Assembly (NCBI GenBank): GCA_045634325.1
Contig: JAZRAA010000040.1
Location: 33,002-97,001, forward strand
From: Acutalibacteraceae bacterium
GTDB taxonomy: Bacteria > Bacillota > Clostridia > Oscillospirales > Acutalibacteraceae
Reading direction: 5' to 3'
Length of the DNA: 64,000 nucleotides
Each line of letters begins with the position of its first letter. Position 1 is the first letter of the stretch. The position numbers and the translations under genes were made by a program. The notes under the pieces were generated by a model. It was not told the DNA's origin and ran no database searches. It was given only the letters and a program-made list of their open reading frames with translations. Of this stretch, positions 46,731 to 64,000 are shown piece after piece.

Positions 46731-46736
46731 GAACGG

Positions 46737-47339
46737 TTACTCCCCTTCCGAAACAGACGCGCCCTCTTGCACGGGCGCAGAAATTGTTTTACGAATACTA
46801 ATAAATAACAACAAATACCGTATGAATGCAAATAACATTAACAAACCCACGAGTATCACCAACGCAAGCAATAATTGTGCGGGCATATCTTTCCACAACA
46901 CAATCGCCGCCACGCTGACATAAAACACCACGGTGGAAACCTTGCCATACCACTTAGAAGCACGCATTTCACTGCCGCGGCTGAGCAATATTAGACCGCC
47001 AAGTCCTTGCAGACTTTCCTTCACAACGCAGATGAGCAATAACGGTAAGAACGCCGTATACTGTGTCGCCAAGCAAATCATCACCGCAACCTGCGTCAAT
47101 TTATCTGCAATGGGGTCAAGCAGTTTGCCGATTTCACTTTCTTGATGAAATTTGCGCGCGATATACCCGTCAAAGCAGTCGGTCAGCCCCGACAACACCA
47201 ACAAGCCAAACGCCGCATACTGCATGATATCATCAGCGGTATTGCGACTCCAAATATACATCACAATGAATATCGGCAAAATCGCAATGCGAATCAGCGA
47301 CAATACATTTGGAATGGTCCACTTCCACTGTAATTGCAT
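46737..47339 (-). CDS. pgsA: CDP-alcohol phosphatidyltransferase (phosphatidylglycerophosphate synthase-like)
   Basis: DCFDGYIARKF-x8-GKLLDPIADK signature. 200 aa polytopic protein. Confidence 0.85.
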   Translation of the reverse strand: MQLQWKWTIPNVLSLIRIAILPIFIVMYIWSRNTADDIMQYAAFGLLVLSGLTDCFDGYIARKFHQESEIGKLLDPIADKLTQVAVMICLATQYTAFLPLLLICVVKESLQGLGGLILLSRGSEMRASKWYGKVSTVVFYVSVAAIVLWKDMPAQLLLALVILVGLLMLFAFIRYLLLFISIRKTISAPVQEGASVSEGE

Positions 47340-47370
47340 GAGAAAATCCTCCCGAGAGTCTTTTACTCTC

Positions 47371-48120: not shown

Positions 48121-48137
48121 ATCCATTTCCTCCTATC

Positions 48138-50061: not shown

Positions 50062-50074
50062 TTTCGCATCTCCT

Positions 50075-50890: not shown

Positions 50891-51738
50891 GTGCCCACCC
50901 CCTTTTCACGGAGATAGGCTGTCAGCTTTTCTGTCGCGGCCTCCACCGTAAAAGCATCGGCATCCAGCCCCAACATATTCAATATACGCGCAACCGAGGG
51001 TACCGATAACCCCATTTGTTGCAGTTGGTCGGCATGTGAAAACACCGCTTGCACGGTATCATACATCTGCACCCGACTGTGTTGCATGACCAACACTTTA
51101 TCCGCCATGCGCGCGACGTCTTCCATGCTATGCGACACCATCAACACAGTGGCGTTGTGCGTTTTACGATAATCGTCAATACGCTCTAACAAAACGTCCC
51201 TTCCATGCGGGTCGAGTCCTGCTGTGGGTTCATCGAGCACCAACACCTCGGGTTGCATGGCAAGCACACCCGCAATTGCCGCACGTCGTTTTTCACCGCC
51301 GGACAAATCAAAAGGAGATTTTTCCAACAGGTCACGTGACAATCCGATTGTGTCAGCCGCTTCCAACACACGCTCGTCTATCTCGCATTTGGAGAGTCCC
51401 ATATTAGCGGGGCCAAAAGCTATATCTTTATACACCGTTTCTGCAAACAGCTGATGCTCGGGGTATTGAAACACCATACCCACTTTAAAACGGACATCCC
51501 GTATCTTTTTAGGGTCTGCCCAAATATCTTTTCCGTGCAACAACACCTGACCGGAAACCGGTTTGAGCAAACCGTTTAAATGTTGTACCAACGTGGATTT
51601 GCCACTGCCGGTATGGCCGATAATGGCGGTTAGCTCGCCGCTTTCAAATGCCACTGACACGTCTTTGAGTGCCGCATGCGCAAACGGCATGCCGTCCGCA
51701 TAGGTATAACACACATTTTTCATTTCAAGAACGCTCAT
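50884..51738 (-). CDS. ecfA2: ECF transporter ATPase EcfA2
   Basis: Walker A GHTGSGKST, signature LSGGEKRR and Walker B LVLDEPT. Confidence 0.92.
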   Translation of the reverse strand: MSVLEMKNVCYTYADGMPFAHAALKDVSVAFESGELTAIIGHTGSGKSTLVQHLNGLLKPVSGQVLLHGKDIWADPKKIRDVRFKVGMVFQYPEHQLFAETVYKDIAFGPANMGLSKCEIDERVLEAADTIGLSRDLLEKSPFDLSGGEKRRAAIAGVLAMQPEVLVLDEPTAGLDPHGRDVLLERIDDYRKTHNATVLMVSHSMEDVARMADKVLVMQHSRVQMYDTVQAVFSHADQLQQMGLSVPSVARILNMLGLDADAFTVEAATEKLTAYLREKGVGTC

Positions 51739-52592
51739 TCGCCGTCACCTGCCTTTCGGACAAGTGCCGCAATTGCGGCGGCGCACTCTTCCTCGGTGAG
51801 CACCGCTTGCGGTAAATCAAATCCGGCTTTTCGTAAGCGATAAGCAAGTTCAGTGGGTTGCGGCACATCCAAACGCAATGCACGCAAAGTATCTACCTGC
51901 GCAAAAATTTCACGTGGTGTACCATCCAGACGGATAATGCCGTTATCCAACACAACCACGCGGTCTGCCGCCGCCGCTTCCGCCATGTAGTGCGTGATGA
52001 GCACCACCGTCATCCCATGTTCGCGGTTAAGCATATGCACGGTATCCAACACCTCTTTGCGCCCTTGCGGGTCCAGCATAGCGGTGGGCTCGTCCAACAC
52101 TAACACCTTTGGTTGCATGGCGAGCACACCCGCAATAGCAATACGCTGTTTTTGACCGCCCGACAGTTTGTGTGGCGCACTTTCTCGATGTTCGTACATA
52201 CCCACGGCACGCAAAGCATCATCCACACGTTTGCGGATTTCCTCCGACGGCACACCGATGTTTTCGGGGCCAAACGCCACGTCTTCTTCCACGATGGACG
52301 AAACCAGTTGGTTGTCGGGGTTTTGCAGTACCATGCCTACCGTGCGACGAATTTCATACAACAACGCCTCATCCGCGGTGTCCATTCCCTGCACCCACAC
52401 TTTGCCGCCACTGGGTAATAAAATGGCGTTAAAGTGTTTGGCGAGTGTAGATTTACCGCTACCATTAGAACCAAGCAACGCAACAAAGCTCCCCTGCTCA
52501 ACGGTAAGGTCTACGCCCCGTAATACCGTTTGAGGAGCTTCATTTGCATACGCATATTTAAATTCCACATGTTGCGTGCTGATAATCTCCAT
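51735..52592 (-). CDS. ecfA1: ECF transporter ATPase EcfA1
   Basis: Walker A GSNGSGKST, signature LSGGQKQR and Walker B LVLDEPT. Start trimmed to ATG 52590-52592 with a GGAGGA SD. Confidence 0.92.
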   Translation of the reverse strand: MEIISTQHVEFKYAYANEAPQTVLRGVDLTVEQGSFVALLGSNGSGKSTLAKHFNAILLPSGGKVWVQGMDTADEALLYEIRRTVGMVLQNPDNQLVSSIVEEDVAFGPENIGVPSEEIRKRVDDALRAVGMYEHRESAPHKLSGGQKQRIAIAGVLAMQPKVLVLDEPTAMLDPQGRKEVLDTVHMLNREHGMTVVLITHYMAEAAAADRVVVLDNGIIRLDGTPREIFAQVDTLRALRLDVPQPTELAYRLRKAGFDLPQAVLTEEECAAAIAALVRKAGDGE

Positions 52593-52608
52593 GGTTCCTC
52601 CGAGAAAA

Positions 52609-53478
52609 CTACTTGGTTTCATGCCACATGGCAGTGGCGCCGCAAGGCAGTACCAAACCGCTTGCGCTGACCGGCAAACCAATTTCGTCCGCCGAAAATG
52701 CACCGCCATATTTTTTATCCATCAGCGAAGCCAATATGTACTGCATCACCGACGGGGATAATCCTGTTGTATACGAGTTAATCAGGAAAAACAGCGGTGT
52801 GTCAGACAACAGTTTAACACATTCCGACACCAGCCCGTAAATCTGTTCTTCCAGTTTCCACACCTCGCCACCGGGACCTCTGCCGTAAGACGGCGGGTCC
52901 ATCAAAATGGCATCGTAGGTATTACCACGGCGCAGTTCACGTTGCACAAACTTACCGCAATCGTCCACCAACCATCGCATCGGACGGTCGGCAAGGCCCG
53001 AATCTACTGCATTTTCACGTCCCCAAGAAACCATGCCTTTAGAGGCATCTACGTGGGTAACGTGCGCACCCGCCGCTATGCAAGCGAGGGTGGCGCCACC
53101 GGTATACCCAAACAGGTTTAACACCCGAATGGGTCTACCGGCATTTTTAATAAATTCTGTCATTTTATCCCAATTCACAGCTTGTTCAGGGAATAAACCG
53201 GTGTGCTTAAAACCCATCGGTTTCAAATTAAAGCGCAGGTCACCGTAACCGATTTGCCAACTCGCCGCTACCGAGCGAAACGTTTCCCAGTGTCCACCGC
53301 CCGTACCCGAACGCACGTACCGTGCGTGTGCCGTTTTCCAACGGGGGTCACGGCGCTCACTGCTCCATATAATCTGCGGATCGGGGCGAATCAAAATCAC
53401 GTCGCCCCACCGCTCCAATCGCTCGCCGTCACCGGCATCCAGCAATTCATAATCTTTCCAGTTATCTGCTACTCTCAT
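52609..53478 (-). CDS. class I SAM-dependent (RlmI/COG1092-like) methyltransferase
   Basis: LNLFGYTGGATLA (motif I) and ILMDPPSYG (motif IV). The start is ambiguous between ATG 53478 and TTG 53490. Confidence 0.75.
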   Translation of the reverse strand: MRVADNWKDYELLDAGDGERLERWGDVILIRPDPQIIWSSERRDPRWKTAHARYVRSGTGGGHWETFRSVAASWQIGYGDLRFNLKPMGFKHTGLFPEQAVNWDKMTEFIKNAGRPIRVLNLFGYTGGATLACIAAGAHVTHVDASKGMVSWGRENAVDSGLADRPMRWLVDDCGKFVQRELRRGNTYDAILMDPPSYGRGPGGEVWKLEEQIYGLVSECVKLLSDTPLFFLINSYTTGLSPSVMQYILASLMDKKYGGAFSADEIGLPVSASGLVLPCGATAMWHETK

Positions 53479-53486
53479 GTTTTTTG

Positions 53487-54839
53487 TCAACCGCCAATCA
53501 AATTCTTAATCGCATTGCAAATGGTTTCTGCCGCTTCATTGATAACAGCAAAATCTTTACCTTCCACCATCACACGAATAACCGGTTCGGTGCCGGAAGG
53601 ACGCACCAATACTCTGCCGTCTCTGCCCAAAGATGCATCAACGTCCGCAATCAATTTTGCAACCGTTTCATCAGCCGCATACTTCGCTTTTGCGGCCGCA
53701 TCTGCACGCACGCTGGAAAGCACCTGCGGGTAACGCGGCATCAAAGCGCCCACTGCGGAGAATTTCCAACCATGACGTTTCACAGCGGACAACAAATGCA
53801 ACGCGGACAACTGACCGTCACCGGTAGTGGCAAATTCACGCATGATGATATGACCCGACTGTTCACCGCCAATGACATAGCCCTTTTCTACCATTTCTTC
53901 CAACACATAACGGTCACCCACTTTAGTGGAAGCCACGTTGATACCCGCTTCTTCGCAATAACGGAAGAAACCGAGGTTGGACATCACGGTTACAACAGCG
54001 GTATTACCCGTTAACTCATTGATGCCTTTAAGGTCTGTAGCCAGTGCGGCAATCATCTGGTCACCATCTATCACTTCGCCGTTTTCATCCACCGCTAAGC
54101 AACGGTCGGCATCGCCGTCAAATGCAACGCCGCCATCCAGTTTATGCGCTTTGACATATTCTGCAAGCGGTTCCAAATAGGTAGAGCCGCAACCCGCATT
54201 GATGTTCACGCCATCGGGATCTAAGGACATAAAGTCACACTGGACGCCCAATTTGTCGAACAATTTTTTGGCAGTCACACTGGCAGAACCATTGGCACAA
54301 TCCACCGCAATATGCAAACCTTTCAAATCAACCGAAACGGTGGACACCAGATGCTCGATATAGTCTTCCACTGCGTTTTCACAACGGTACACGCGACCCA
54401 CGTCACCACCGGTCGGGCAGGGGATCTCTTTTGCATTATCCAGCACAATAGCTTCAATTTCTTCTTCCAAGCTGTCGGACAGTTTAAAGCCTTCGCCGTT
54501 AAAAATCTTAATGCCATTATATTCACAAGGATTATGCGAAGCGGAAATCATCACTGCGGCATCCGCGTTATATGCTTTTGCCAAAAACGCAACAGCGGGG
54601 GTGGGCACTACTCCCAGCAAATGTACGTCTGCACCCACAGAACACAGACCCGCGCACAATGCGGTTTCCAGCATATCACCGGAGATACGGGTATCTTTAC
54701 CAATCAACACCTTGGGACGTTTTTTTTCAGCAGAGGTCAGCACCATTGCCGCCGCTCTGCCGATGCCGATAGCCAACTCACAAGTCAACTCCGTATTTGC
54801 AACGCCACGCGCGCCGTCCGTACCAAATAATCTTCCCAT
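53487..54839 (-). CDS. glmM: phosphoglucosamine mutase
   Basis: 450 aa starting MGRLFGTDGARG, with the phosphoserine loop SASHNPCEYNGIK. Confidence 0.96.
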   Translation of the reverse strand: MGRLFGTDGARGVANTELTCELAIGIGRAAAMVLTSAEKKRPKVLIGKDTRISGDMLETALCAGLCSVGADVHLLGVVPTPAVAFLAKAYNADAAVMISASHNPCEYNGIKIFNGEGFKLSDSLEEEIEAIVLDNAKEIPCPTGGDVGRVYRCENAVEDYIEHLVSTVSVDLKGLHIAVDCANGSASVTAKKLFDKLGVQCDFMSLDPDGVNINAGCGSTYLEPLAEYVKAHKLDGGVAFDGDADRCLAVDENGEVIDGDQMIAALATDLKGINELTGNTAVVTVMSNLGFFRYCEEAGINVASTKVGDRYVLEEMVEKGYVIGGEQSGHIIMREFATTGDGQLSALHLLSAVKRHGWKFSAVGALMPRYPQVLSSVRADAAAKAKYAADETVAKLIADVDASLGRDGRVLVRPSGTEPVIRVMVEGKDFAVINEAAETICNAIKNLIGG

Positions 54840-54872
54840 AAAACATAACTCCTTTTTTAAAATTAAGTTTGT

Positions 54873-55922
54873 TTACAATATCGTTATCTGCTCCGGCACA
54901 TTTTCAGTTGTACCGGGAGCAGGTAAACCCAAATGTTTGTAGGCGGCGGGTAAAACCACCCGACCGCGCGGGGTGCGGCTCAAAAAGCCGATTTGCATCA
55001 GATACGGTTCGTACACATCTTCAATAGTCACCGATTCTTCTCCGATAACCGCTGCCACCGTGTCCAAGCCAACCGGACCACCGCCGTAATGGCGAATCAT
55101 CGCTTCCAGCATATTTCTGTCCACACGATCCAACCCCAGAGCATCCACTTCCAAACGGTCCAGCGCCTGTGCAGCAGTATCCGCATCAATCACGCCGTCG
55201 TTCATTACCTGCGCAAAATCGCGCACACGCTTTAACATACGGTTAGCAATACGCGGTGTCCCGCGACTGCGGGAAGCAATTTCCAAAGCACCGCGTTCAT
55301 CACACGGCGTATGCAAAATCTGTGCACTGCGTCGGACAATTTCCGCTAAATGTGCGGGGGTGTACAACTCCAACCGCAAAATCACGCCAAAACGATCACG
55401 CAACGGTGCAGAAAGTTGTCCGGCGCGGGTGGTCGCGCCAATCAGCGTAAATTTCTGTAACGGCAGATGAATGGAAGAAGCGCCTTGTCCTTTGCCGTTG
55501 ATAATATCAATGGAGAAATCCTCCATCGCCGGATACAAAATTTCTTCCACCGTGCGGGGCAAACGATGAATTTCGTCGATGAACAGTACGTCGCCTTCCT
55601 CCATGTTGGTGAGCATTGCCGCCAAATCGCCGGGGCGTTCGAGTGCAGGACCCGAAGTAACACGGAAATTCACGCCCAGTTCATTGGCGATAATTGCCGC
55701 TAATGTAGTTTTGCCCAAACCGGGCGGTCCGTATAATAATACGTGGTCAAGAGGTTCATGCCGCAATTTCGCGGCATCGATGAACACCGACAGGTTTTCT
55801 TTCACCTTGTCTTGACCGATATACTCAGAAAGGGTGCGCGGGCGCAATGGGTTATCCCCGTCATCCTCCGGCAGATATTCCGCCGCTACCATTCGATTTT
55901 CATAATCGGTTTCAAACTCCAT
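54873..55922 (-). CDS. ruvB: Holliday junction branch migration helicase RuvB
   Basis: Walker [10 protein letters not shown], Walker B FIDEIHR and a RuvB C-terminal winged helix. Start trimmed to ATG 55920-55922. Confidence 0.96.
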
Positions 55923-55936
55923 CAAACACCCTCCCC

Positions 55937-56536
55937 TCATTTATTCGCAAGCAGTTTCAATGCACTGCGCACCAACGCCTCCACCGGCAAGTTGCTGTCC
56001 AGTTTGCCAACTGCCGCCGCCGCTTCTCCGGAAGAGAAGCCCAGCACCGTCAAAGCACTGACCGCCTGCGCAGCATTTCCCGCCGCCGAAATCGGTCCCG
56101 CTTCGGGCAAAGATACACCGTCTCCTGCCGTAGGCAATGCGCATTTATCTTTCAGTTCCAAAGCGATTCGCTGTGCGAGCTTCGGACCGACACCCGCCGC
56201 TTTGGTGAGCGCCTTGTAATCACCTGACGCCACGGCCAATGCCACTTGTTCAGGCGTGAGTTCGGATAAAATCGCAATGCCGACTTTCGGACCGACACCC
56301 GACACAGTGGTGAGCATCTTGAAAGATGCCAATTCATTTTTATCTGCAAAGCCGAATAATTCCATCGCATCCTCACGGACGTTGAGTGTGGTATACAACA
56401 TCACTTCATTGCCGACAGCGGGCAGTTGTCTTGCCGTGTTAAAGGTGATTTGGCAAGCCATGCCCACGCCGCCGCATTCCACCACCGCCAATTTGGGTTC
56501 CGCATGGGTCAGTTTGCCGCGCACACTATATATCAT
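55937..56536 (-). CDS. ruvA: Holliday junction DNA-binding protein RuvA
   Basis: MIYSVRGKL..., with HhH motifs ([24 protein letters not shown]). ATGA overlap with the ruvC stop. Confidence 0.94.
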
Positions 56537-57048
56537 ATCCTCTTCCCTCGCATTTCCAGCAACGAATTTTTCACCGCCGAGCCACCGTATTGCGCGTGGC
56601 AAATTGCCATAGCGAGCGCATCGGCAGTATCGTCGGGTTTTGGCACCGCTTTCAGCCGTAACAAACGGCGGGTCATTTCCATCACCTGCGGCTTTTGCGC
56701 TTGTCCGTAACCGGTAACGGCACTTTTCACCTGCAACGGTGTGTATTCATAAAACGGCACATCGCCTTGCTGCAACGCCAACAAAATCACACCACGCGCC
56801 TGCGCCACCTCAATCGCAGTTTTCTGGTTGTTTTGAAAGTATAATTTCTCCACAGATGCGACATCGGGATGATATCGCTCAATAACCGCCGCAAGATCGC
56901 TGTGGATTTTTTCCAGACGCGCCGAAAACGGCGTTCCCGCCTTGGTAATAACGGCACCAAAATCTATCGGTGAAAACCTGCCTCTCTCGTATTGAATCAC
57001 GCCCCAACCGACAATCGCATAACCGGGGTCAATGCCGAGAATAACCAT
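56533..57048 (-). CDS. ruvC: crossover junction endodeoxyribonuclease RuvC
   Basis: MVILGIDPGYAIVGWG... with a RuvC fold. Start trimmed to ATG 57046-57048 with a GGGAGGTG SD. Confidence 0.93.
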   Translation of the reverse strand: MVILGIDPGYAIVGWGVIQYERGRFSPIDFGAVITKAGTPFSARLEKIHSDLAAVIERYHPDVASVEKLYFQNNQKTAIEVAQARGVILLALQQGDVPFYEYTPLQVKSAVTGYGQAQKPQVMEMTRRLLRLKAVPKPDDTADALAMAICHAQYGGSAVKNSLLEMRGKRI

Positions 57049-57089
57049 GTTTTCACCTCCCAACACTTTCTCATGGTATTATCTATAAC

Positions 57090-57118
57090 AGTATAACATA
57101 TATCTGCAAAAAATGCAA
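57090..57118 (-). promoter_or_regulatory. sigma-A promoter for ruvCAB (TTGCAT-N17-TATACT)
   Basis: Minus strand has TTGCAT (57113-57118), a 17-nt spacer and TATACT (57090-57095). Confidence 0.5.
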
Positions 57119-57163
57119 AACTTTCTGTTAAATTTCTTATATATTTTGTATAGAAAATTACAG

Positions 57164-57192
57164 TTGCCATATGTGCCATTTTCGTGTATACT
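57164..57192 (+). promoter_or_regulatory. sigma-A promoter for the cysteine desulfurase-thiI operon (TTGCCA-N17-TATACT)
   Basis: TTGCCA at 57164-57169, a 17-nt spacer and TATACT at 57187-57192. Confidence 0.5.
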
Positions 57193-57223
57193 ATAACCAA
57201 CTATAAATTATGGAGTTGTGCGC

Positions 57224-58381
57224 TTGAAAATTATCTATTTAGACAACAGTGCTACCACCGCCGTGTGCCCGCAATCGGCACAAAAAGCGGTACATATCAT
57301 GCAAGAATGTTATGGCAACCCCTCTTCTTTGCACCGTTTAGGATTCGAAGCGGAAAAAGAAATCAACGCCGCCAAAGAAGTCGTTGCCGACATGATGGGC
57401 GTGCCCGCTCGTGATGTATATTTCACCTCCGGCGGCACCGAGGCAAACAACACCGCCGTTTTGGGTGCCGCACGCGCACTTGCGCGACGCGGCAAACACA
57501 TCGTCACCACCGCTGTGGAACATTCTTCGGTTGCGGCAGCGTGCGATTTGCTGGAAAAAGAAGGATTTGTCGTCACACGTCTCACCCCTGACGAAAACGG
57601 CTGTATTACACCCGGAGCAATCGCTGCCGCCTGCCGTGAAGACACCGTTGTGGTATCCATTATGTTGGTCAACAACGAAACCGGTGCGCGATTCCATCCC
57701 GAACTGGCGGTTCCGCTCATTCGCAAACGCGCTCCGCTCGCCTTCATCCACTGTGATGCAGTGCAAGCCGCGGGTAAATTGCCGTTACACGGTGCAAAAT
57801 GGCAACTGGATGCCATGACCGTTTCCGCACACAAATTGCATGGTCCGAAAGGATGCGGCGCACTGTATCTGCGACGCGGTGCACGTATGAAACCGTTGCT
57901 ACTGGGCGGCAAACAACAAGAAAGTGTGCGTCCCGGTACCGAAGCGGTACCACTGATTGCCGCTTTCGGCGAAGCAGTAAAAGCTTTACCCTCCCTGTCA
58001 GCGCAAACGGAACATTTTAAAAACTTACGCGACCATCTGGTCGGACGTTTATCTACGCTTGAAGAAGTTGTGCTGCATCTGCCGCAAGACGGCGTGCCGT
58101 ATATCATACATCTGTCTGCAGTAGGCCTGCGCAGTGAAACCGTGTTGCATTTCTTATCCGAGCGGGGCATATTCGTATCCAGCGGTTCCGCTTGCTCCAA
58201 AGGTGCGAAAAGCCCCGTATTAACCGCTATGGGACTGCCCTCGGCGGAGATTGACAGTGCTATTCGTGTCAGCTTGTGTCATACCAATACCGCGCAAGAT
58301 ATAGACGCCTTTGCAGACGCCCTTTCACTTGCCATTCAAACCATTGCCAGAAAAAAAGGAGCTTCCAATCATGAATCGTGA
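57224..58381 (+). CDS. class V aminotransferase-fold cysteine desulfurase (NifS/NifZ-like, ThiI partner)
   Basis: IYLDNSATT, PLP lysine block SAHKLHGPKG and catalytic loop SSGSACS. The TTG at 57224 is preferred (GGAG 8 nt upstream); the GTG at 57218 is too close to the SD. Confidence 0.88.
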   Translation: MKIIYLDNSATTAVCPQSAQKAVHIMQECYGNPSSLHRLGFEAEKEINAAKEVVADMMGVPARDVYFTSGGTEANNTAVLGAARALARRGKHIVTTAVEHSSVAAACDLLEKEGFVVTRLTPDENGCITPGAIAAACREDTVVVSIMLVNNETGARFHPELAVPLIRKRAPLAFIHCDAVQAAGKLPLHGAKWQLDAMTVSAHKLHGPKGCGALYLRRGARMKPLLLGGKQQESVRPGTEAVPLIAAFGEAVKALPSLSAQTEHFKNLRDHLVGRLSTLEEVVLHLPQDGVPYIIHLSAVGLRSETVLHFLSERGIFVSSGSACSKGAKSPVLTAMGLPSAEIDSAIRVSLCHTNTAQDIDAFADALSLAIQTIARKKGASNHES

Positions 58382-59909
58382 TTTCAATGAAAAAGAATAC
58401 GCAGCGGTTGAGCAAGAGATATGGGATTTGCTGAAAAAAATGCAAGAAAAATCCTTGTCCACAAAGACCGAGCAAGAGAAGAAACCGACAAGCGAAAAAA
58501 TCCTGCCGGAATTGCCCGACACGCCCAACCCCGATTTTGTAGATGCACCGCTCATATTACCTCTTGCCAATGAGCAACTGCATCCTGCAAGTGCCACCGT
58601 CAACAACGCAACACAAACAGATAAAAACAAACCCGCAAACAAACGTAGCACGGGTCTGCGCAATATGTTCCCCTCCAAATCCGACTCCATCGGTGAAAAG
58701 ATGCGCAAATGCGTATTCTTGATTTGTCTGCTATTATGTATCGTCTCGTTATGCTTTTTAAGCTATTACATGGTCGTTGAACCCAAACAAGTGGAAACCA
58801 AAAACCAGCAGTACTTAGCACTATATACCGAGCAACCCGTCAACACGACCCCCAACACCAACACCTATCCCGATGGAATGCAATCCTCTTTCCGTGGGTT
58901 ATACGACGTCAATCCCGACATCGCAGGTTGGTTGAGTTTCGCTTCCAAAGGCACCGATGCATTTTTGCGTGTCAATCTGCCGGTGGTACATTGCGACAAT
59001 AACGACACCTATTTGTCCCGCTCGTTTGACGGTGAACAAAGCCGTTCAGGTACACTGTTTTTTGATGCAAGTAACAGCATTGCCAAAGATACCGATAACA
59101 AAGTCAGCATCATCTACGGGCACAACATGGCAAGCGGTGCTATGTTTGCAGGACTAAACAAACTGGTAGATAACGTCTACCGCGCACGTGCTGCTACCAC
59201 TATTTCACTCAACACGTTGTATGACACGCAACAGTATCAAGTGTTTGCAGTGTTGGTGTGTGATGAAGATGCAACCGGCGATGCCTATTTCCCGTATCTG
59301 CGCACCTCATTTGACACAGAAGCCGAGTTCCTCGAATATGTGTCCAATTTGCGTGCACGTTCTATGTACAATTACCCCATCACCGTCAGCGGTGATGACC
59401 AGTTGTTGATTCTGTCCACCTGCACCAACAAAAGTCAGGTCAAAATCAGTAACGGCAGATTGGTGGTAGTAGCGCGCCGTGTGAAAAAAGGCGAAAACGC
59501 GCAAATGAATACCAATCTCATCACACAAAACGAAGATGCGATTATGCCGTATGCCTGGTATACCGCACAACAGTTGTCCCCCCACGCATTTTACACCGAA
59601 AAGAACTATACGGTACAAAACGAAGGTAACGTTGTAACGGCAACTACCACTCCCCCTACGACCACTACCGACGTTGCAACCACTACTACCAATACCACAA
59701 CTACGAGAAAAAAAGTCGTGGCAAAAAACAACAAAACGACTAAAACGAAAGCTACCACAACAACGGTAAAAACTACCACTACTGTAGCGACCACAACCAC
59801 AACTACGACTGCAACTACGACTGCAACTACGACTGCAACGACTACAGCGAACACAACTACTGCTGCTACCGGCAGTCAAACCACCCAAACGGAAGGAACA
59901 ACCACATGA
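58371..59909 (+). CDS. class B sortase-family transpeptidase with long cytoplasmic N-terminus, one TM and a Thr-rich C-terminal tail
   Basis: Catalytic His (IIYGHNM), Cys (LILSTCT) and Arg (VVVARR) lie in SrtB-like order. TM is CVFLICLLLCIVSLCFLSYYMVV. ATG 58371 has an AAGGAG SD, overlaps the desulfurase end by 11 nt, and its stop overlaps the thiI ATG (ATGA). Confidence 0.8.
   Translation: MNRDFNEKEYAAVEQEIWDLLKKMQEKSLSTKTEQEKKPTSEKILPELPDTPNPDFVDAPLILPLANEQLHPASATVNNATQTDKNKPANKRSTGLRNMFPSKSDSIGEKMRKCVFLICLLLCIVSLCFLSYYMVVEPKQVETKNQQYLALYTEQPVNTTPNTNTYPDGMQSSFRGLYDVNPDIAGWLSFASKGTDAFLRVNLPVVHCDNNDTYLSRSFDGEQSRSGTLFFDASNSIAKDTDNKVSIIYGHNMASGAMFAGLNKLVDNVYRARAATTISLNTLYDTQQYQVFAVLVCDEDATGDAYFPYLRTSFDTEAEFLEYVSNLRARSMYNYPITVSGDDQLLILSTCTNKSQVKISNGRLVVVARRVKKGENAQMNTNLITQNEDAIMPYAWYTAQQLSPHAFYTEKNYTVQNEGNVVTATTTPPTTTTDVATTTTNTTTTRKKVVAKNNKTTKTKATTTTVKTTTTVATTTTTTTATTTATTTATTTANTTTAATGSQTTQTEGTTT
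59637..59906 (+). repeat. Thr-rich low-complexity tail coding region, including a perfect 3 x 12-nt tandem repeat (59801-59836)
   Basis: Codes TATTTPPTTTTDVATTTTNTTTT...TTTTTTATTTATTTATTTANTTTAATGSQTTQTEGTTT. The unit aactacgactgc repeats three times. Confidence 0.85.
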
Positions 59910-61087
59910 ATGATACTGTATTAAAAGAAATTCTACTGATAAAAAACGGCGAACTGGCACTCAAAGGTTTGAACCGCGGCACGTTTGAAGCGGTGCTGGT
60001 GAAAAACCTACGATACCGCCTTCGTAAACTGGGACAGTTTACCATTCGTAAGGCCCAATCCACCATTTATATTGAACCCTCCAGCCCCGATGCCGATTTG
60101 GATGCGGCAGTGGATGCGATATCCCGCGTGTTCGGTATTGCCGGATTCTCCCGCGCTTGCGTCACCGAAAAAGACATCGATGCCATCGGCAAAGCGGCTA
60201 TTCAGTATTTGGAAAACGAGTTATGCGCCGCCTCCAGCTTTAAAGTGGAGTCCAAGCGAGCCGACAAGTCATTCACCTTTACATCTCCTGAAATCAGCCG
60301 AGAAATCGGTGGCAGAATTTTAGAGCATTATTCGCATCTGCGGGTAGACGTGCACGCCCCTGATATCACGGTGTATGTAGAGATTCGAGATTTCGGTGCT
60401 TATATACATGCGCCACAGTTGCCTGGTGCCGGTGGTATGCCGGTAGGTACCGGCGGCAAATGCGGTATCCTCATTTCCGGCGGCATCGACTCTCCCGTTG
60501 CAGCTTATATGATGGCAAAACGCGGTATTGAACTGACCGGTATTCATTTTGCCTCTCCCCCGTATACCAGTGAACGCGCCGAGCAAAAGGTTATCGACCT
60601 TTTGAAACAGGTTTCCACTTATGCAGGGCGCATTCCGTTGCATATCGTACCGTTCACGCATATTCAAGAAGAAATTCAGCGCAACTGCCCCGAAGAATAT
60701 TTCACACTGATTATGCGACGGTTTATGATGCGGCTCGCCTGTCGTATCGCCAAAGCACAAGGATGCGGCGCACTTATCACAGGCGAAAGTGTCGGACAGG
60801 TAGCCAGTCAAACAATCCCCGCACTCGCTTGCACCGATGCCGTGACCGACCTGCCGATGTTCCGTCCAGTCATTGGCATGGATAAAGAGGAAATCGTGCG
60901 TATTTCCCGTAAAATCGGTACATTTGATATTTCCATTCAACCGTTTGAGGATTGTTGTACCGTGTTTACACCCCGCCATCCCTGCACCCGCCCCAAAGTA
61001 GAGGCGGTTGCCAAAGCCGAAAGTGTTTTAGACATTGACGGGTTGGTAGAAGAAGCATTAGCGGGCGTGCGCATCATAAAAATTTGA
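59906..61087 (+). CDS. thiI: tRNA 4-thiouridine(8) synthase ThiI (no rhodanese domain)
   Basis: 393 aa with a THUMP region and the PP-loop SGGIDSPVAAY. Confidence 0.94.
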   Translation: MNDTVLKEILLIKNGELALKGLNRGTFEAVLVKNLRYRLRKLGQFTIRKAQSTIYIEPSSPDADLDAAVDAISRVFGIAGFSRACVTEKDIDAIGKAAIQYLENELCAASSFKVESKRADKSFTFTSPEISREIGGRILEHYSHLRVDVHAPDITVYVEIRDFGAYIHAPQLPGAGGMPVGTGGKCGILISGGIDSPVAAYMMAKRGIELTGIHFASPPYTSERAEQKVIDLLKQVSTYAGRIPLHIVPFTHIQEEIQRNCPEEYFTLIMRRFMMRLACRIAKAQGCGALITGESVGQVASQTIPALACTDAVTDLPMFRPVIGMDKEEIVRISRKIGTFDISIQPFEDCCTVFTPRHPCTRPKVEAVAKAESVLDIDGLVEEALAGVRIIKI

Positions 61088-61114
61088 CCGATTTGAGATG
61101 AAAGGAGGGACAGC

Positions 61115-62848
61115 ATGGCACAAACGATATCCACTGCCATTCATGAAACGGCACAAAAAGCGGTAGATGTTTTGTGTGCGAAAGCACTCACCGTTTCCAC
61201 CGCGGAATCCTGTACTGCCGGACTGCTGTCCGCCGCCATCACCGAAATAGCCGGTGCGTCCGCTGTTTTTGGTTGCGGGATTGCGGCATATTCTCCTGCT
61301 ATCAAACAACAGCTTTTAGAAGTGCCCGCCGCTATATTGGAAGCGCACGGCACTGTTAGTAGTGAAACCGCCACCGCCATGGCAGACGGTGTGCGCCGCA
61401 AAAGCGGCGCAGATATAGGTGTTGCCATTACCGGTGTCGCAGGACCTGCACAAAGCGAGGGAAAACCCGTGGGTACAGTGCACATCGCACTCTCCGACAA
61501 AAACCGTGTGTGGCTGACACAATTACCCACGCAAGATGGTCCGCAAACCCGTGAGAATATTCGCAATGCGGCTGTATTGACCGCACTTTCCCTCATACTG
61601 CAATATGCAGAAAATTTCCCACTGATGATGGCGGGCAGCATACCGATTGTGCAAGCCGAAAAAACACAGGTGGTCATCCCCGAACAACCTACCACCCATC
61701 AGCACAAGCCCTTTTTGGCCACTATTTTTCCGTGGCAAGGCGATTCCATTAAAGAAAAATTATACAAAGCGGGCGGAGCTTTTGCCGCACTGTGTGTTTT
61801 AGTGGGAATTGTTTCAAGTGGGTATCAGCTGTTTTCAGAAAGCGGTAATCGCTCGCTGTACAGCGACTTGCAAGATATGTATACCACCGAACAATCCCAA
61901 GCATCAACGCCTTCCGACCCTAAAAATATTCTTCCGCGTTTTTCCTCGCTGAGACTGCAAAATGCGGATATCGGCGGTTGGATACGCATTGCCGACACCG
62001 GCATCAACTATCCCGTGATGAAAAATGCGGGCAGTAATTTTTACGCAGACCACAATTTCCGCCAACAAGCATCTGCTTATGGCGTGCCTTTTCTGGATAA
62101 AGATAACCACTTGGCATCAGCAGAGAGCCAAGACAAAGTATTGGTCGTCTACGGCAACAACACAGAAGACGGACAGATGTTTTCGGATTTGCTGTCCTAC
62201 CGTGACCCGAACTTTTTCAAAAACCACGCCGTAGTAGAAATGAGCACCTTATATGCGGCTGAACAATGGGAATTGTTTGCCGTGATGGTCATTGACCCAC
62301 AAGAAGTCAACGCATTTGCATTTAATCAAACAACATTTGAAGACCATCAGGCTTTCACCGACCATATCGTAGGGATACGCAAGCGCTCCTTGCTCAACAC
62401 CAACGTCACCGTAAACCCCGACGACCGTCTGTTAGTACTGGTAACGCAAGCAGAAAAGACATATGGATTTGACGGGGCAACTTTTGTGGTGGTAGGCAAA
62501 CGGCTGACCCAATCGAATACGGCAAGCAAGAAAGAACCTTTGACCGTCAAAAAGAACCAGACGGTTATTATGCCGCGTGCATGGGTGCGTAACCAACAGA
62601 ACACCGTCACCAAGCACACTACCGCTTCCAAGACGCAAAATACAACCACGACCACCTCGGCAGAAACTACCACGAATGCCACATCGACAACCACCCATAC
62701 GCAACCGACGACCACCGATGTGACCATTTCTACTACCGATACAACCTCCTCTACACAAGGCACCACTACCGCAGACACGGCGGCTACCCAATCACAAACC
62801 ACTATAACGACGACAACAACCGAGTCTGCTCTATCCGAAAATACTTAA
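61115..62848 (+). CDS. fusion protein: CinA C-terminal/PncC-type nicotinamide-nucleotide amidohydrolase domain + TM + catalytically degenerate sortase-B-like domain + Thr-rich tail
   Basis: Residues 1 to about 165 are TAESCTAGLLSAAIT...GVAITGVAGP (CinA/PncC). TM is GGAFAALCVLVGIVSSGYQLF. The ectodomain is paralogous to the upstream sortase, but the His block reads VVYGNNT and the Cys block reads LVLVTQA. AAAGGAGGG SD. Confidence 0.75.
   Translation: MAQTISTAIHETAQKAVDVLCAKALTVSTAESCTAGLLSAAITEIAGASAVFGCGIAAYSPAIKQQLLEVPAAILEAHGTVSSETATAMADGVRRKSGADIGVAITGVAGPAQSEGKPVGTVHIALSDKNRVWLTQLPTQDGPQTRENIRNAAVLTALSLILQYAENFPLMMAGSIPIVQAEKTQVVIPEQPTTHQHKPFLATIFPWQGDSIKEKLYKAGGAFAALCVLVGIVSSGYQLFSESGNRSLYSDLQDMYTTEQSQASTPSDPKNILPRFSSLRLQNADIGGWIRIADTGINYPVMKNAGSNFYADHNFRQQASAYGVPFLDKDNHLASAESQDKVLVVYGNNTEDGQMFSDLLSYRDPNFFKNHAVVEMSTLYAAEQWELFAVMVIDPQEVNAFAFNQTTFEDHQAFTDHIVGIRKRSLLNTNVTVNPDDRLLVLVTQAEKTYGFDGATFVVVGKRLTQSNTASKKEPLTVKKNQTVIMPRAWVRNQQNTVTKHTTASKTQNTTTTTSAETTTNATSTTTHTQPTTTDVTISTTDTTSSTQGTTTADTAATQSQTTITTTTTESALSENT
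62618..62825 (+). repeat. Thr-rich low-complexity tail coding region
   Basis: Codes TTASKTQNTTTTTSAETTTNATSTTTHTQPTTTDVTISTTDTTSSTQGTTTADTAATQSQTTITTTTTE. Confidence 0.8.
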
Positions 62849-62890
62849 AAAAAGCGGTTTCACCGTCCAAGACGGTGAAACCGCTTTTTA
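62847..62890. terminator. bidirectional rho-independent terminator
   Basis: Perfect 15-bp stem AGCGGTTTCACCGTC/GACGGTGAAACCGCT (62853-62885), flanked by AAAAAA and TTTT. Confidence 0.88.
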
Positions 62891-62891
62891 C

Positions 62892-63518
62892 TTATTCTTC
62901 TTTTTGTTTTTCCCAAGGAATGATGCACAGCGCTTCCGCAACCGGCTCTCGCATCCACAAAGAAGGCGTGATACGCAATGTAAAACCATTACCCGCATTT
63001 GCCACACAATCTCCCATGGACAACTTGGGCAACGCATAGGTCATCATCAACATCATAATCACACCGCCGTGGGTGCAAATGACCGCCTCGGTATCTCCGC
63101 TACGCATCAGTTCTTCTACCACCGCCTCAAAAGCCGCCGTCACACGTGCACAAAACGTCTCGGTAGACTCACCGCCCGGAATCACTTGGGACGTGCCCTC
63201 CATCCATTCCAGAAAATCAGCACTGTTTTTGAGTTGCGCAATACTTTTGCCTTCCCACGCCCCGAAATCACATTCGGTCAATCCTTCTACCACTTCCAAT
63301 TTTGCTTGCGGATACAACACCTTCATCGTCTGTTTGCAACGATTGAGCGGTGCAGTAAAAAAGCGTGCGGCACCGGGATATTCCATCTGTTCTTTTAAAG
63401 TCAGAAGTTCTTTTAACCCCTCCGGTGATAACGGTAAATCGGTTCTGCCAATATACAATCCTTCCGTATTCGCGGCGGTTTGCCCGTGGCGAATGAGATG
63501 AATTTTGTAAGTTTTCAT
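62892..63518 (-). CDS. histidine phosphatase (phosphoglycerate mutase-like) family protein
   Basis: RHG motif (IHLIRHGQT) and a second catalytic His region (ICTHGGV). ATG 63516-63518 with GGAGGA 7 nt upstream. Confidence 0.8.
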   Translation of the reverse strand: MKTYKIHLIRHGQTAANTEGLYIGRTDLPLSPEGLKELLTLKEQMEYPGAARFFTAPLNRCKQTMKVLYPQAKLEVVEGLTECDFGAWEGKSIAQLKNSADFLEWMEGTSQVIPGGESTETFCARVTAAFEAVVEELMRSGDTEAVICTHGGVIMMLMMTYALPKLSMGDCVANAGNGFTLRITPSLWMREPVAEALCIIPWEKQKEE

Positions 63519-63551
63519 CAAAATTTCCTCCTAATTGTTGCAATTTGACGA

Positions 63552-63580
63552 TTTACAAATGGTATCATTTATTATATAAT
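63552..63580 (+). promoter_or_regulatory. sigma-A promoter for the XRE-family regulator (TTTACA-N17-TATAAT)
   Basis: TTTACA at 63552-63557, a 17-nt spacer and TATAAT at 63575-63580. Confidence 0.45.
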
Positions 63581-63629
63581 AATTAAACTCACTGTAATTT
63601 TTTTGAGAAAAATCTTTGGAGGATTCCCC

Positions 63630-64000
63630 ATGAACAGTACGTTCCCACGACTAATTACCCTCTTGCGCAAAGAACAGGGTATTAGTCAGAAAAAAGCATC
63701 TGCGGACTTGGGTATTTCGCAGGCATTGCTTTCTCACTATGAAAAAGGTATCCGCGAATGCGGTTTGGATTTTGTAGTACGTATTGCCGATTACTATGGT
63801 GTTTCTTGTGACTATCTGCTGGGTCGCACCGCTGACAAAAGCGGTGCTATGATTGCCGTAGACGATATTCCCGAAAACGACCCTGCGATACAAGACAGCC
63901 GTTTAAGAGGCGGCGTGCTGCCGGTCCTCAACAAAAAATTGGTTGTCAACTCCCTACATATCCTGTTCGATATGTTGCAAAAATGCAATAACAAAGCCCT
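63630..64000 (+). CDS. XRE-family helix-turn-helix transcriptional regulator (3' end outside window)
   Basis: ATG 63630 with GGAGGA at 63618-63623. HTH is LRKEQGISQKKASADLGISQALLSHYEKG. The frame stays open to the window end. It is absent from the ORF track because no stop is reached. Confidence 0.8.
   Translation, partial: MNSTFPRLITLLRKEQGISQKKASADLGISQALLSHYEKGIRECGLDFVVRIADYYGVSCDYLLGRTADKSGAMIAVDDIPENDPAIQDSRLRGGVLPVLNKKLVVNSLHILFDMLQKCNNKA

What the first reader, a model, noticed from the sequence alone, without database searches (positions are those of the whole stretch)
61115..62848. CinA/PncC NMN-amidohydrolase domain fused through a TM helix to a catalytically dead sortase-B domain
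What the sequence shows:
- The N-terminal 165 aa or so is a CinA C-terminal/PncC domain (TAESCTAGL...ITGVAGP), followed by a linker and one TM helix.
- The ectodomain aligns along its length with the upstream sortase (FRGLYDVNPDIAGWL vs FSSLRLQNADIGGWI; VNLPVV vs INYPVM).
- The catalytic His block IIYGHNM has become VVYGNNT, and the Cys block LILSTCT has become LVLVTQA. Two of the three sortase catalytic residues are therefore lost.
- A Thr-rich tail of about 70 aa follows.

Inference: this looks like a pseudo-sortase, perhaps a partner, regulator or substrate-binding module for the active paralogue, physically coupled to a cytoplasmic NAD-salvage-type enzyme domain. I am not aware of a described PncC-sortase architecture.
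Basis: partly seen in the sequence, partly recalled or inferred. Interest (0 to 1): 0.7.

Follow-up and report, generated by a model that had tools for sequence, protein, structure and literature searches.

The report
CinA enzyme fused to dead sortase
This gene encodes a membrane protein with an apparently working NAD-recycling enzyme (CinA/PncC) inside the cell and, outside, a wall-protein-anchoring enzyme (sortase B) that kept its fold but lost all three catalytic residues; it belongs to a large, unstudied family of CinA-sortase fusions in gut Clostridia.

Summary
ORF 61115-62848 (577 aa) has four parts:
- an intact CinA/PncC domain;
- one transmembrane (TM) helix;
- a class-B sortase fold (TM-score 0.91 to S. 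aureus SrtB);
- a disordered Thr-rich tail.

All three are replaced (His to N348, Cys to Q445, Arg to T456), and the ectodomain contains no cysteine.

The dead domain is not decaying: its dN/dS of 0.084 equals that of the CinA domain.

The fusion is not an artefact or a one-off. Hundreds of Clostridia proteins share it, including many with an intact His/Cys/Arg triad, so the fusion is broader than this dead lineage and probably older. Inactivation happened at least twice independently.

In the window's lineage the gene ends a conserved operon, nifS, active srtB, thiI, cinA::dead-srtB. I found this order in 17 of 19 loci with enough upstream sequence. Relatives often add SpoIID/LytB or PASTA wall-binding domains after the sortase fold.

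Most likely it is a membrane-tethered CinA whose ectodomain is a non-catalytic, wall-facing module, possibly working with the co-transcribed active sortase. That function is inferred, not shown.

I found no paper describing it. Databases label these proteins "CinA" or "SrtB family sortase". I rate it a new variant of known kinds, of moderate to high interest.

The parts
57164..57192 (+). Sigma-70-like promoter candidate upstream of the operon
   Evidence: TTGCCA-17-TATACT, 10 of 12 matches, 26 nt before nifS. This is a consensus match only.
57218..58381 (+). nifS/iscS-like cysteine desulfurase, first gene of the operon
   Evidence: Pfam Aminotran_5, E=3e-72. It holds the same position in 17 related loci.
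58371..59909 (+). Free-standing class-B sortase paralogue with an intact triad. It has a ~110-aa N-terminal cytoplasmic extension, a juxtamembrane motif, a TM helix, the sortase domain and a Thr-rich tail.
   Evidence: TIGR03064, E=1e-42, 146 bits. It carries IIYGHNM, LILSTCT and NGRLVVV, i.e. His, Cys and Arg. The ORF opens at TTG 58311; the probable start is ATG 58371, which overlaps nifS by 11 nt. The orthologue clade has 183/200 bootstrap support.
59906..61087 (+). thiI (tRNA 4-thiouridine synthase)
   Evidence: Pfam ThiI_fer + THUMP + ThiI, E=3e-67. Its start overlaps the sortase stop codon by 4 nt.
61103..61108 (+). Ribosome-binding site AGGAGG of the fusion gene
   Evidence: Read directly from the sequence; 6 nt before ATG 61115.
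61115..62848 (+). cinA::pseudo-srtB fusion gene (577 aa), the finding itself
61142..61612 (+). Cytoplasmic CinA/PncC nicotinamide-nucleotide amidohydrolase domain (aa 10-166), predicted to be catalytically competent
   Evidence: PF02464, E=1e-47. E31, S32, C33, T34, G36, G47, S49, Y59, K64, M89, T106, G107, A109, G110, P111, R146 and R150 are invariant in 121 family members. They correspond to the AtCinA Ser31/Lys63 dyad and its NMN-binding residues (PMC5384747). Foldseek to 2a9s gives TM-score 0.89, rmsd 1.7. dN/dS is 0.084.
61613..61711 (+). Linker (aa 167-199); the conserved post-CinA motif spans aa 164-175 (Y164-A-E-x-x-P169-x-x-x-A173-G174-S175), followed by a low-confidence stretch
   Evidence: P169 and G174 are invariant in 60 sequences. 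pLDDT is below 50 for aa 185-197.
61712..61768 (+). Cytoplasmic juxtamembrane motif FLATIFPWQGDSIKEKLYK (aa 200-218)
   Evidence: Shared with the upstream paralogue. A regex proxy for it, (F/L)P-x-K-G-D, matches 55 of 72 CinA-fused active proteins, 26 of 46 free-standing active and 138 of 228 CinA-fused dead.
61769..61834 (+). Single TM helix (aa ~219-240), N-terminus inside
   Evidence: Best 19-aa Kyte-Doolittle window scores 1.83. There are three K/R residues before it and a net acidic stretch after it. AF2 predicts one continuous helix over aa 212-262.
61901..62605 (+). Extracytoplasmic class-B sortase fold without a catalytic triad (aa 263-497): the pseudo-sortase
   Evidence: phmmer against SrtB structures gives E about 1e-22. 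Foldseek to 4lfd gives TM-score 0.91. There is no Cys in aa 241-497. dN/dS is 0.084 against L001.
62156..62158 (+). Codon for N348, in place of the catalytic His (S. aureus SrtB H130, B. anthracis SrtB H140)
   Evidence: Alignments. This position is Asn in 37 of 44 non-redundant dead-clade members.
62447..62449 (+). Codon for Q445, in place of the catalytic Cys (SaSrtB C223)
   Evidence: The position varies within the dead clade (D 20, P 7, Q 5, N 5, T 3 of 44).
62480..62482 (+). Codon for T456, in place of the catalytic Arg (SaSrtB R233, which lies at Cys+10)
   Evidence: Alignment to 4lfd and 1qx6 and to the active paralogue's NGRLVVV. The Cys+10 spacing is confirmed for baSrtB C233/R243 (PMC11987632).
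62606..62845 (+). Thr-rich disordered tail (aa 498-577). It is homologous in position to the linker that leads to a SpoIID/LytB domain in longer relatives.
   Evidence: 49% Thr. pLDDT is about 30. SpoIID is present in L008 and L012 relatives.
62849..62889 (.). Intrinsic terminator closing the operon. It is bidirectional, shared with the convergent histidine-phosphatase gene 62892..63521 (-).
   Evidence: 19-bp stem with 9 GC pairs, flanked by A and T runs.

Best explanation
What is shown: the gene encodes a single-pass membrane protein with its N-terminus inside the cell.
- The cytoplasmic CinA/PncC domain keeps the Ser/Lys dyad and every NMN-binding residue.
- The outside domain is a class-B sortase fold whose His, Cys and Arg are replaced by Asn, Gln and Thr. 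It therefore cannot carry out thiol transpeptidation.
- The protein is the last gene of a translationally coupled operon: nifS, active srtB, thiI, cinA::dead-srtB.
- It belongs to a large Clostridia family of CinA-TM-SrtB fusions encoded next to nifS-thiI. Many members still have an intact triad.
- The dead domain is under the same purifying selection as the CinA domain.

What is inferred about history:
- In the window's lineage (Acutalibacteraceae and other Oscillospirales-like genomes) a free-standing active paralogue sits between nifS and thiI, and the CinA-linked copy became a pseudoenzyme.
- The window protein is a reduced form. It has lost the MoCF and KH domains of full-length CinA and the C-terminal SpoIID/LytB domain that many relatives carry.

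What is inferred about function:
- The protein is a membrane-tethered CinA.
- Its ectodomain is a non-catalytic, wall-facing binding or scaffolding module, probably acting in one envelope complex with the co-transcribed active sortase.
- It thereby places or couples the cytoplasmic nicotinamide-nucleotide amidohydrolase at sites of wall or surface-protein processing.
For: Anatomy:
- Domain hits, PDB sequence matches, the AF2 model and Foldseek.

Loss of the triad:
- H to N348, C to Q445 and R to T456.
- No Cys anywhere in the ectodomain.
- His and Cys are always lost together across 392 pooled sequences.
- The ex-Cys position varies within the dead clade and no new invariant constellation appears there. 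This argues for a true pseudoenzyme rather than a new enzyme.

Still functional:
- dN/dS is 0.084 for both domains against an 84%-identical orthologue.
- The ectodomain is 62% identical to L002, against 56% for the CinA domain.

CinA competence:
- 17 key residues are invariant in 121 members, compared against AtCinA mutagenesis.

Operon:
- Overlapping genes, one promoter-like site and one strong terminator.
- The same four-gene order occurs in 17 of 19 loci with enough upstream sequence, with differing flanks.

Fusion broader than, and probably older than, this inactivation:
- 72 CinA-fused domains with intact H/C/R against 228 dead.
- Operon type I, nifS-thiI-CinA::active SrtB.
- NJ tree. The clade of upstream active paralogues has 183/200 bootstrap support, and the fused dead-domain clade excludes every upstream-paralogue sequence in 197/200 replicates.

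Wall-directed role:
- SpoIID/LytB, PASTA or Big_2 domains follow the sortase fold in relatives.

Active/dead pairing recurs in a second arrangement:
- CinA::active followed by a dead SrtB with a C-terminal SpoIID-like domain, in L034 and L035; L026 shows the same gene order but the dead gene is cut by the contig end.
Against: - No experiment or interaction prediction links the dead domain to the active paralogue.
- Dead CinA fusions exist with no adjacent active sortase: L037 (long contig), L031, and low-coverage L019. L036 has a second dead paralogue downstream, but its short contig hides the region upstream of thiI. The partner role is therefore not obligatory.
- Residues that contact the sorting signal in B. 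anthracis SrtB are almost all different here. Binding of a canonical sorting signal is therefore not supported.
- No sortase substrate is encoded in the 64-kb window.
- Why nifS and thiI are interleaved is unexplained.
- NMN deamidase activity is inferred from residue conservation only.
- The NJ tree gives only 58% support for the main dead clade (115/200). It does not resolve whether the upstream active paralogue arose by duplication of the fused copy.
Confidence: 0.55

Rival explanations
1. The sortase fold is only an anchor or oligomerisation module. The protein's sole business is CinA chemistry at the membrane. The ectodomain has no functional link to the neighbouring active sortase or to sorting. 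The operon neighbourhood reflects CinA's old linkage to nifS-thiI.
For: - The nifS-thiI-cinA::srtB order exists without any second sortase (L011, L037).
- Catalysis was lost independently several times while the fold was kept. This suggests catalysis is dispensable for the fusion's core role.
- The groove residues are not conserved.
Against: - A plain anchor would not need about 235 residues held at dN/dS 0.084, nor more conservation than the CinA domain itself.
- Relatives add wall-active domains (SpoIID/LytB, PASTA) to it.
- The active/dead pair recurs in two different gene arrangements.
Confidence: 0.25
2. The ectodomain has acquired a new catalytic activity that uses other residues, for example Asn348 with conserved His313, Ser320 or Tyr322. 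On this view it is an enzyme of unknown chemistry, not a pseudoenzyme.
For: - Purifying selection is strong.
- Asn at the ex-His position is nearly fixed (37 of 44).
- H313, S320 and Y322 are nearly invariant or invariant.
Against: - The ex-Cys position is variable (D/P/Q/N/T) and the ex-Arg is kept in only about half of members.
- Only one position (S357) is conserved specifically in dead members. Most invariant residues are shared with active sortases, so they are structural.
- The ectodomain has no Cys.
Confidence: 0.08
3. The fusion is an artefact, with two genes joined by a frameshift or assembly error. Alternatively, the sortase half is a decaying relic.
For: None beyond the prior possibility. 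One related low-coverage contig (L019) shows a split ORF.
Against: - The ORF is continuous, with its own ribosome-binding site and terminator.
- More than 200 independent homologues from NCBI, ENA, JGI and Logan assemblies share the same single-ORF architecture.
- AF2 predicts one continuous TM helix joining the two domains.
- dN/dS of 0.084 excludes neutral decay.
Confidence: 0.02

Closest known systems
Class B sortases (S. aureus SrtB 4lfd/1ng5, B. anthracis SrtB 2oqw, L. monocytogenes 5jcv, C. difficile 4ux7, C. perfringens 5b23)
   Same: - Same fold (TM-score 0.87-0.91) and about 25% identity.
- N-terminal membrane anchor followed by the extra SrtB helix.
- Conserved structural motifs: GW...I.YPV, YG.N and RS.
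   Different: - His, Cys and Arg are all replaced and there is no cysteine.
- The TLxTC motif reads LVTQA.
- It scores below the TIGR03064 cutoff and gives no Pfam Sortase hit.
- It has a cytoplasmic enzyme domain at the N-terminus and a Thr-rich tail.
- Substrate-contact residues are not conserved.
CinA / PncC NMN deamidases (A. tumefaciens CinA 2a9s, T. thermophilus CinA 4ct8, S. mutans 6mr3, E. coli PncC)
   Same: - PF02464 domain, 40% identical to 2a9s, rmsd 1.7 A.
- The Ser/Lys dyad and the phosphate- and ribose-binding residues are all present and invariant across the family.
   Different: - Known CinA/PncC proteins are soluble. This one is tethered to the membrane through a C-terminal TM helix and an ectodomain.
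- The window protein lacks the MoCF (COG1058) and KH domains. Longer relatives of the same fusion family keep them.
CinA(full-length)-TM-SrtB fusions with an intact triad (e.g. P0155; P0267 from Eubacteriaceae bacterium CHKCI005). They are annotated 'putative competence-damage inducible protein' and are uncharacterised.
   Same: - Same overall architecture and the same juxtamembrane motif.
- Same genomic position downstream of nifS-thiI.
   Different: - They keep His/Cys/Arg and pass the Pfam Sortase threshold.
- They keep the MoCF and KH domains.
- L011 has no second sortase gene between nifS and thiI.
Catalytically dead cell-wall enzyme paralogues that act as regulators: the degenerate LytM factors EnvC and NlpD, which activate amidases, and SpoIIQ. 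This comparison comes from my own knowledge and was not tested here.
   Same: A hydrolase or transpeptidase fold that lost its catalytic residues but is conserved, sits in the envelope, and is encoded with or acts with an active enzyme. The FtsEX-EnvC system also couples a cytoplasmic enzyme to an outside dead domain.
   Different: The fold is different (LytM against sortase). No activation or interaction has been shown for the sortase case.

Membership tests
Class B sortase (NCBIfam TIGR03064; MEROPS C60B) | Sortase B fold: a beta-barrel with the extra N-terminal helix | tested here: met
   AF2 pLDDT is above 90. Foldseek gives TM-score 0.91 and E=2e-20 to 4lfd.
Class B sortase (NCBIfam TIGR03064; MEROPS C60B) | Catalytic His-Cys-Arg triad, including the TLxTC motif | tested here: not met
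   The triad positions hold N348, Q445 and T456. There is no Cys in aa 241-497.
Class B sortase (NCBIfam TIGR03064; MEROPS C60B) | Score at or above the curated family cutoffs | tested here: not met
   TIGR03064 scores 133.1 bits against a cutoff of 153.75. Pfam PF04203 gives no hit at E<=0.01.
Class B sortase (NCBIfam TIGR03064; MEROPS C60B) | N-terminal membrane anchor with the catalytic domain outside the cell | tested here: inconclusive
   A single TM helix preceded by K/R-rich sequence fits an N-in, C-out topology. No dedicated topology predictor or experiment was available.
Class B sortase (NCBIfam TIGR03064; MEROPS C60B) | A cognate substrate with a C-terminal sorting signal encoded nearby | tested here: not met
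   No ORF in the 64-kb window has a credible sorting signal.
CinA / PncC nicotinamide-nucleotide amidohydrolase (Pfam PF02464; TIGR00199) | Domain score above the curated cutoffs | tested here: met
   PF02464 scores 162 bits against 23.5. TIGR00199 scores 130.7 bits against 68.9.
CinA / PncC nicotinamide-nucleotide amidohydrolase (Pfam PF02464; TIGR00199) | Ser/Lys catalytic dyad plus the Tyr, Thr and Arg residues that bind substrate (AtCinA S31, K63, Y58, T105, R145) | tested here: met
   S32, K64, Y59, T106, R146 and R150 are present, and invariant in 121 relatives.
CinA / PncC nicotinamide-nucleotide amidohydrolase (Pfam PF02464; TIGR00199) | NMN deamidase activity | not testable with these tools
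   Needs an enzyme assay.
Full-length CinA (NF001813: MoCF/COG1058 + KH + PncC) | N-terminal MoCF_biosynth and CinA_KH domains | tested here: not met
   Only model positions 259-410 of NF001813 are matched, at 149.6 bits against a cutoff of 379. Relatives L005, L007, L008 and L012 keep KH, with or without MoCF.
Pseudoenzyme (a conserved, non-catalytic homologue of an enzyme) | Catalytic residues lost while the fold is maintained under purifying selection | tested here: met
   dN/dS is 0.084. The dead clade is conserved across sequences 35-60% identical.
SpoIID/LytB domain proteins (TIGR02669) | C-terminal SpoIID/LytB domain | tested here: not met
   Absent from the window protein, which ends in the Thr-rich tail. 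Present in 111 of 392 pooled relatives, e.g. L008 at 95.8 bits against a cutoff of 83.3.

The most novel reading that the evidence does not exclude
Clostridia may have a conserved envelope module with three parts: an active class-B sortase, a dead sortase paralogue (often carrying a SpoIID/LytB or PASTA domain), and a membrane-tethered CinA. In this module the pseudo-sortase would sense or bind a wall or lipid-II-linked ligand and pass that state across the membrane to the CinA nucleotide amidohydrolase, or the reverse. That would link NAD/NMN turnover or damage and competence signalling to wall remodelling or surface-protein anchoring. It would be the first functional pseudo-sortase, and it would physically explain CinA's long-unexplained membrane association.
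Probability: 0.12. Interest if true: 0.85.

Novelty: new variant of a known kind. Interest (0 to 1): 0.6.

Why it matters
- Sortases are treated as obligate Cys transpeptidases. A large, conserved clade that keeps the fold but not the triad, and that arose more than once, would be the first pseudo-sortase family. It implies a catalysis-independent job for the sortase fold.
- CinA is widespread, but its cellular role is still debated (competence and damage induction, NMN deamidase, NAD-adduct cleavage, reported membrane association; these roles are from my own knowledge). A covalent fusion of CinA to a wall-facing module in hundreds of gut Clostridia is a Rosetta-stone-type clue that ties CinA to the envelope.
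- The hypotheses are testable. The conserved operon with nifS and thiI, and the recurring SpoIID/LytB and PASTA additions, offer concrete handles.
- The organisms are abundant gut anaerobes (Acutalibacteraceae and other Clostridia).

Tried and rejected
- Alternative His or Cys restoring the triad: rejected, because aa 241-497 contain no Cys.
- Frameshift or misassembly at the junction: rejected.
- Neutral decay of the sortase half: rejected by dN/dS.
- Sortase substrates in the window: a scan for C-terminal sorting signals gave only two spurious hits.
- A second CinA or a further sortase in the window: none.
- Rfam families across the whole window: none at gathering score.
- Literature: searches for pseudosortase or inactive sortase, CinA + sortase, class B sortase + ThiI, sortase superfamily domain architecture, and PF02464 + PF04203 found nothing relevant.
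Taxonomic breadth therefore rests on a few named records.
- The listing of cluster members returned no names or accessions.
- The look-up of encoding contigs found no record for the window's own protein.
- A single ancient origin for all dead domains, including the free-standing copies that carry a C-terminal SpoIID-like domain, has only 99/200 bootstrap support and stays unresolved.
- Conserved substrate-groove residues: they are not conserved.
- No heterodimer prediction was possible, because the structure tool takes one chain.
Full report
**1. The observation**

The window has one uninterrupted ORF at 61115..62848 (+), 577 aa. An AGGAGG ribosome-binding site lies 6 nt before the ATG. A 19-bp-stem terminator follows the stop codon directly.

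Pfam places a CinA domain (PF02464) at aa 11-164 with E=1e-47. NCBIfam places the class B sortase model TIGR03064 at aa 226-447 with E=1e-38 and 133 bits, below its 153.75-bit cutoff. The Pfam Sortase model does not hit at all.

A single hydrophobic segment (aa ~219-240) follows a K/R-rich stretch, which fits an N-in, C-out topology.

BLASTP against the upstream ORF (58371..59909) gives 28% identity over 330 aa, E=4e-33.

An AlphaFold2 model built from a 60-sequence alignment has pLDDT above 90 in both domains. It shows one continuous helix over aa 212-262 and a disordered tail over aa 499-577. Foldseek against the PDB returns S. aureus SrtB 4lfd (TM-score 0.91, E=2e-20) and A. tumefaciens CinA 2a9s (TM-score 0.89, rmsd 1.7 A). 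The tail is 49% Thr.

**2. A correction: all three catalytic residues are gone**

In solved SrtB enzymes the catalytic Arg lies ten residues after the Cys. This is C233/R243 in B. anthracis SrtB (PMC11987632). From my own knowledge it is C223/R233 in S. aureus SrtB.

The phmmer alignment to 4lfd and 1qx6 puts that Arg opposite T456. The alignment to the active paralogue puts the R of NGRLVVV opposite the same residue.

The triad His/Cys/Arg is therefore N348/Q445/T456. The ectodomain (aa 241-497) contains no cysteine, so no nearby residue can restore a thiol nucleophile.

**3. The CinA half looks active**

A. tumefaciens CinA has a Ser31/Lys63 dyad and binding residues C32, S48, Y58, T105 and R145. 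These were defined by mutagenesis (PMC5384747). They map to S32, K64, C33, S49, Y59, T106 and R146/R150 in the window protein. These and the other conserved positions are invariant in all 121 aligned family members.

**4. It is a family, and the fusion is broader than this dead lineage**

The first homology search found 635 hits. More than 100 were full-length proteins with the same architecture, and some were 800-950 aa with CinA_KH, with or without MoCF_biosynth.

A HMMER scan of 1.84 billion representatives with the TM-plus-ectodomain segment found 13,045 relatives. Many of the top 150 were 500-1300-aa proteins with the sortase domain in the middle.

I classified 392 pooled sequences with local HMMs:
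- 72 are CinA-fused with His, Cys and Arg all intact.
- 228 are CinA-fused with neither His nor Cys. Of these, 109 keep the Arg and 119 do not.
- No intermediate lacking only His or only Cys occurs among the CinA fusions.

Architectures in the pool:
- 133 are CinA-TM-dead.
- 85 are MoCF-CinA-TM-dead-SpoIID.
- 59 are MoCF-CinA-TM-active.

A second search seeded with an active fusion (P0155) returned hundreds more clusters. Their precomputed Pfam lists read PF00994 + PF18146 + PF02464 + PF04203. Sources name them [quoted passage not shown], [quoted passage not shown] or "SrtB family sortase".

So the architecture is in the databases, but it is named after one half or the other. For dead members the sortase half falls below the Pfam threshold and goes unlisted.

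I found no paper on it.

**5. Genomic context**

In the window the four genes overlap or nearly abut:
- nifS 57218-58381
- srtB 58371-59909
- thiI 59906-61087
- the fusion 61115-62848

One promoter-like site lies upstream and one strong terminator downstream.

The same order, nifS, active sortase, thiI, CinA::dead sortase, occurs in 17 of 19 loci that have a dead fusion and enough upstream sequence (window included). These loci share only 35-84% identity and have different flanks.

Two other arrangements exist:
- Type I is nifS-thiI-CinA::active SrtB, with no second sortase at the locus (L011).
- Type II is nifS-thiI-CinA::active SrtB followed by a free-standing dead SrtB with a C-terminal SpoIID-like domain (L034 and L035; L026 has the same order, but the dead gene runs off the contig end).

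There are exceptions to active/dead pairing:
- L037 has a dead fusion with no sortase neighbour on a 34-kb contig.
- L036 has two dead paralogues in tandem, with the region upstream of thiI not visible on its 6-kb contig.
- L031 and low-coverage L019 have no upstream sortase.

**6. Evolution**

I built an NJ tree of 142 non-redundant sortase domains, rooted on S. aureus and L. monocytogenes SrtB.
- The upstream free-standing sortases form one clade (183/200 bootstraps), nested among CinA-fused active enzymes.
- The window-type dead domains fall in a separate clade. That exact clade appears in 115/200 replicates, and it excludes all upstream paralogues in 197/200.
- Dead P0265 is sister to active P0190 in 160/200 replicates.
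- P0265, P0244 and P0177 lie outside the main dead clade in 196-198/200. The triad was therefore lost at least twice, probably three or four times.
- Whether the free-standing dead copies of type II share the main clade's origin is unresolved (99/200).

All classes share a cytoplasmic juxtamembrane motif, (F/L)PWKGD..E..RK.

**7. Selection**

Against the 84%-identical orthologue in L001 (an Acutalibacteraceae MAG), dN/dS is:

| Region | dN/dS |
|---|---|
| CinA domain | 0.084 |
| Linker and TM helix | 0.132 |
| Pseudo-sortase domain | 0.084 |
| Tail | 0.104 |

Against L002 the pseudo-sortase domain is 62% identical, more than the CinA domain at 56%.

Within the dead clade:
- The ex-His position is Asn in 37 of 44 non-redundant members.
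- The ex-Cys position varies (D 20, P 7, Q 5, N 5, T 3).
- Only one position (S357) is conserved specifically in dead members.
- Almost all other invariant residues are shared with active sortases.

This is the pattern of a maintained fold without a new catalytic centre.

Residues that contact the sorting signal in B. anthracis SrtB are almost all different in the window protein.

**8. Interpretation**

Shown:
- The anatomy.
- The complete loss of the triad.
- The intact CinA residues.
- The conserved operon.
- The family-wide distribution.
- The independent inactivations.
- The purifying selection.

Inferred:
- The protein is a membrane-tethered CinA whose ectodomain is a non-catalytic, wall-facing module.
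- The recurrent SpoIID/LytB, PASTA and Big_2 additions in relatives point to peptidoglycan or the wall as its environment or ligand.
- The recurrence of active/dead pairs in two different gene arrangements points to joint action with an active sortase.
- The exceptions show that this pairing is not obligatory at the locus level.

I put about 0.9 on the structural and evolutionary description and about 0.35 on the specific partner or scaffold mechanism.

Why nifS and thiI are interleaved with the two sortase genes remains unexplained. The simplest reading is that cinA::srtB has long sat downstream of nifS-thiI (type I), and that the second sortase copy was inserted into that operon.

**9. Verdict**

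- The pseudo-sortase reading is supported, and the artefact reading is refuted.
- The architecture is not unique but widespread and unstudied.
- It is a new variant of known kinds: a class B sortase turned pseudoenzyme, and CinA turned membrane protein.
- Interest is moderate to high, because it offers a first pseudo-sortase family and a physical link between CinA and the cell envelope.

Noticed in passing
window 32508..34073 (+): A 521-aa protein combines FAD synthetase and riboflavin kinase (RibF) with a C-terminal HAD-family hydrolase domain at aa 304-492. This looks like an unusual three-part fusion.
   Followed up: no
window 58371..59909 (+): The active sortase paralogue has a ~110-aa low-complexity cytoplasmic N-terminal extension where its relatives carry CinA. 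It also has a Thr-rich C-terminal tail (57% Thr). Orthologues in other genomes have PT- or PE-rich tails instead.
   Followed up: partly
L008 5794-8646; L012 8001-11489; P0265 in L036 655-4011; P0223, P0305, P0317: Relatives of the fusion carry wall-directed domains after the sortase fold. SpoIID/LytB scores 95.8 bits on TIGR02669 in L008 and is found in 111 of 392 pooled sequences. PASTA (P0265) and Big_2 also occur.
   Followed up: partly
L026 674-4452; L034 336-6110; L035 5643-10447: A mirror-image arrangement exists. CinA is fused to the active sortase, and a free-standing dead sortase paralogue follows immediately; in L034 and L035 it carries a C-terminal SpoIID-like domain, while in L026 it is cut by the contig end. 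In L026 and L035 the dead copy has Cys one position before the canonical site (TLVCKS), with His replaced by Asn.
   Followed up: partly
L037 5523-8663; L036 628-6004: In L037 a dead CinA fusion shows a second, partial sortase-like hit within the same protein and has no sortase neighbour. L036 has two dead sortase-like genes in tandem.
   Followed up: no
L019 544-6311: A low-coverage (2x) contig from the same species group as L012 lacks the sortase gene between nifS and thiI, and its fusion ORF is split in two. It is either a deletion variant or a misassembly.
   Followed up: no
window 61604..61639 (aa 164-175): A motif lies just after the CinA domain: Y-A-E-x-x-P-x-x-x-A-G-S. P169 and G174 are invariant in 60 fusion proteins. 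Its function is unknown, and I did not check whether soluble CinA proteins have it.
   Followed up: no
window 61712..61768 and 58671..58727: A cytoplasmic juxtamembrane motif, (F/L)P-x-K-G-D-x-x-x-E-x-x-R-K, sits directly before the TM helix. Both paralogues share it, as do most active and dead members of the whole radiation.
   Followed up: partly
window 1..64000: The window is a housekeeping chromosomal region. It encodes LeuRS, SMC, TopA, IF-2, a Clp-type AAA+ ATPase (AAA_2 and ClpB_D2-small domains), RnfC, a phosphoglucosamine-mutase-like protein, RuvABC and a LytR_cpsA_psr protein at 6346..7656 (-). No Rfam family reaches its gathering score anywhere in it.
   Followed up: partly
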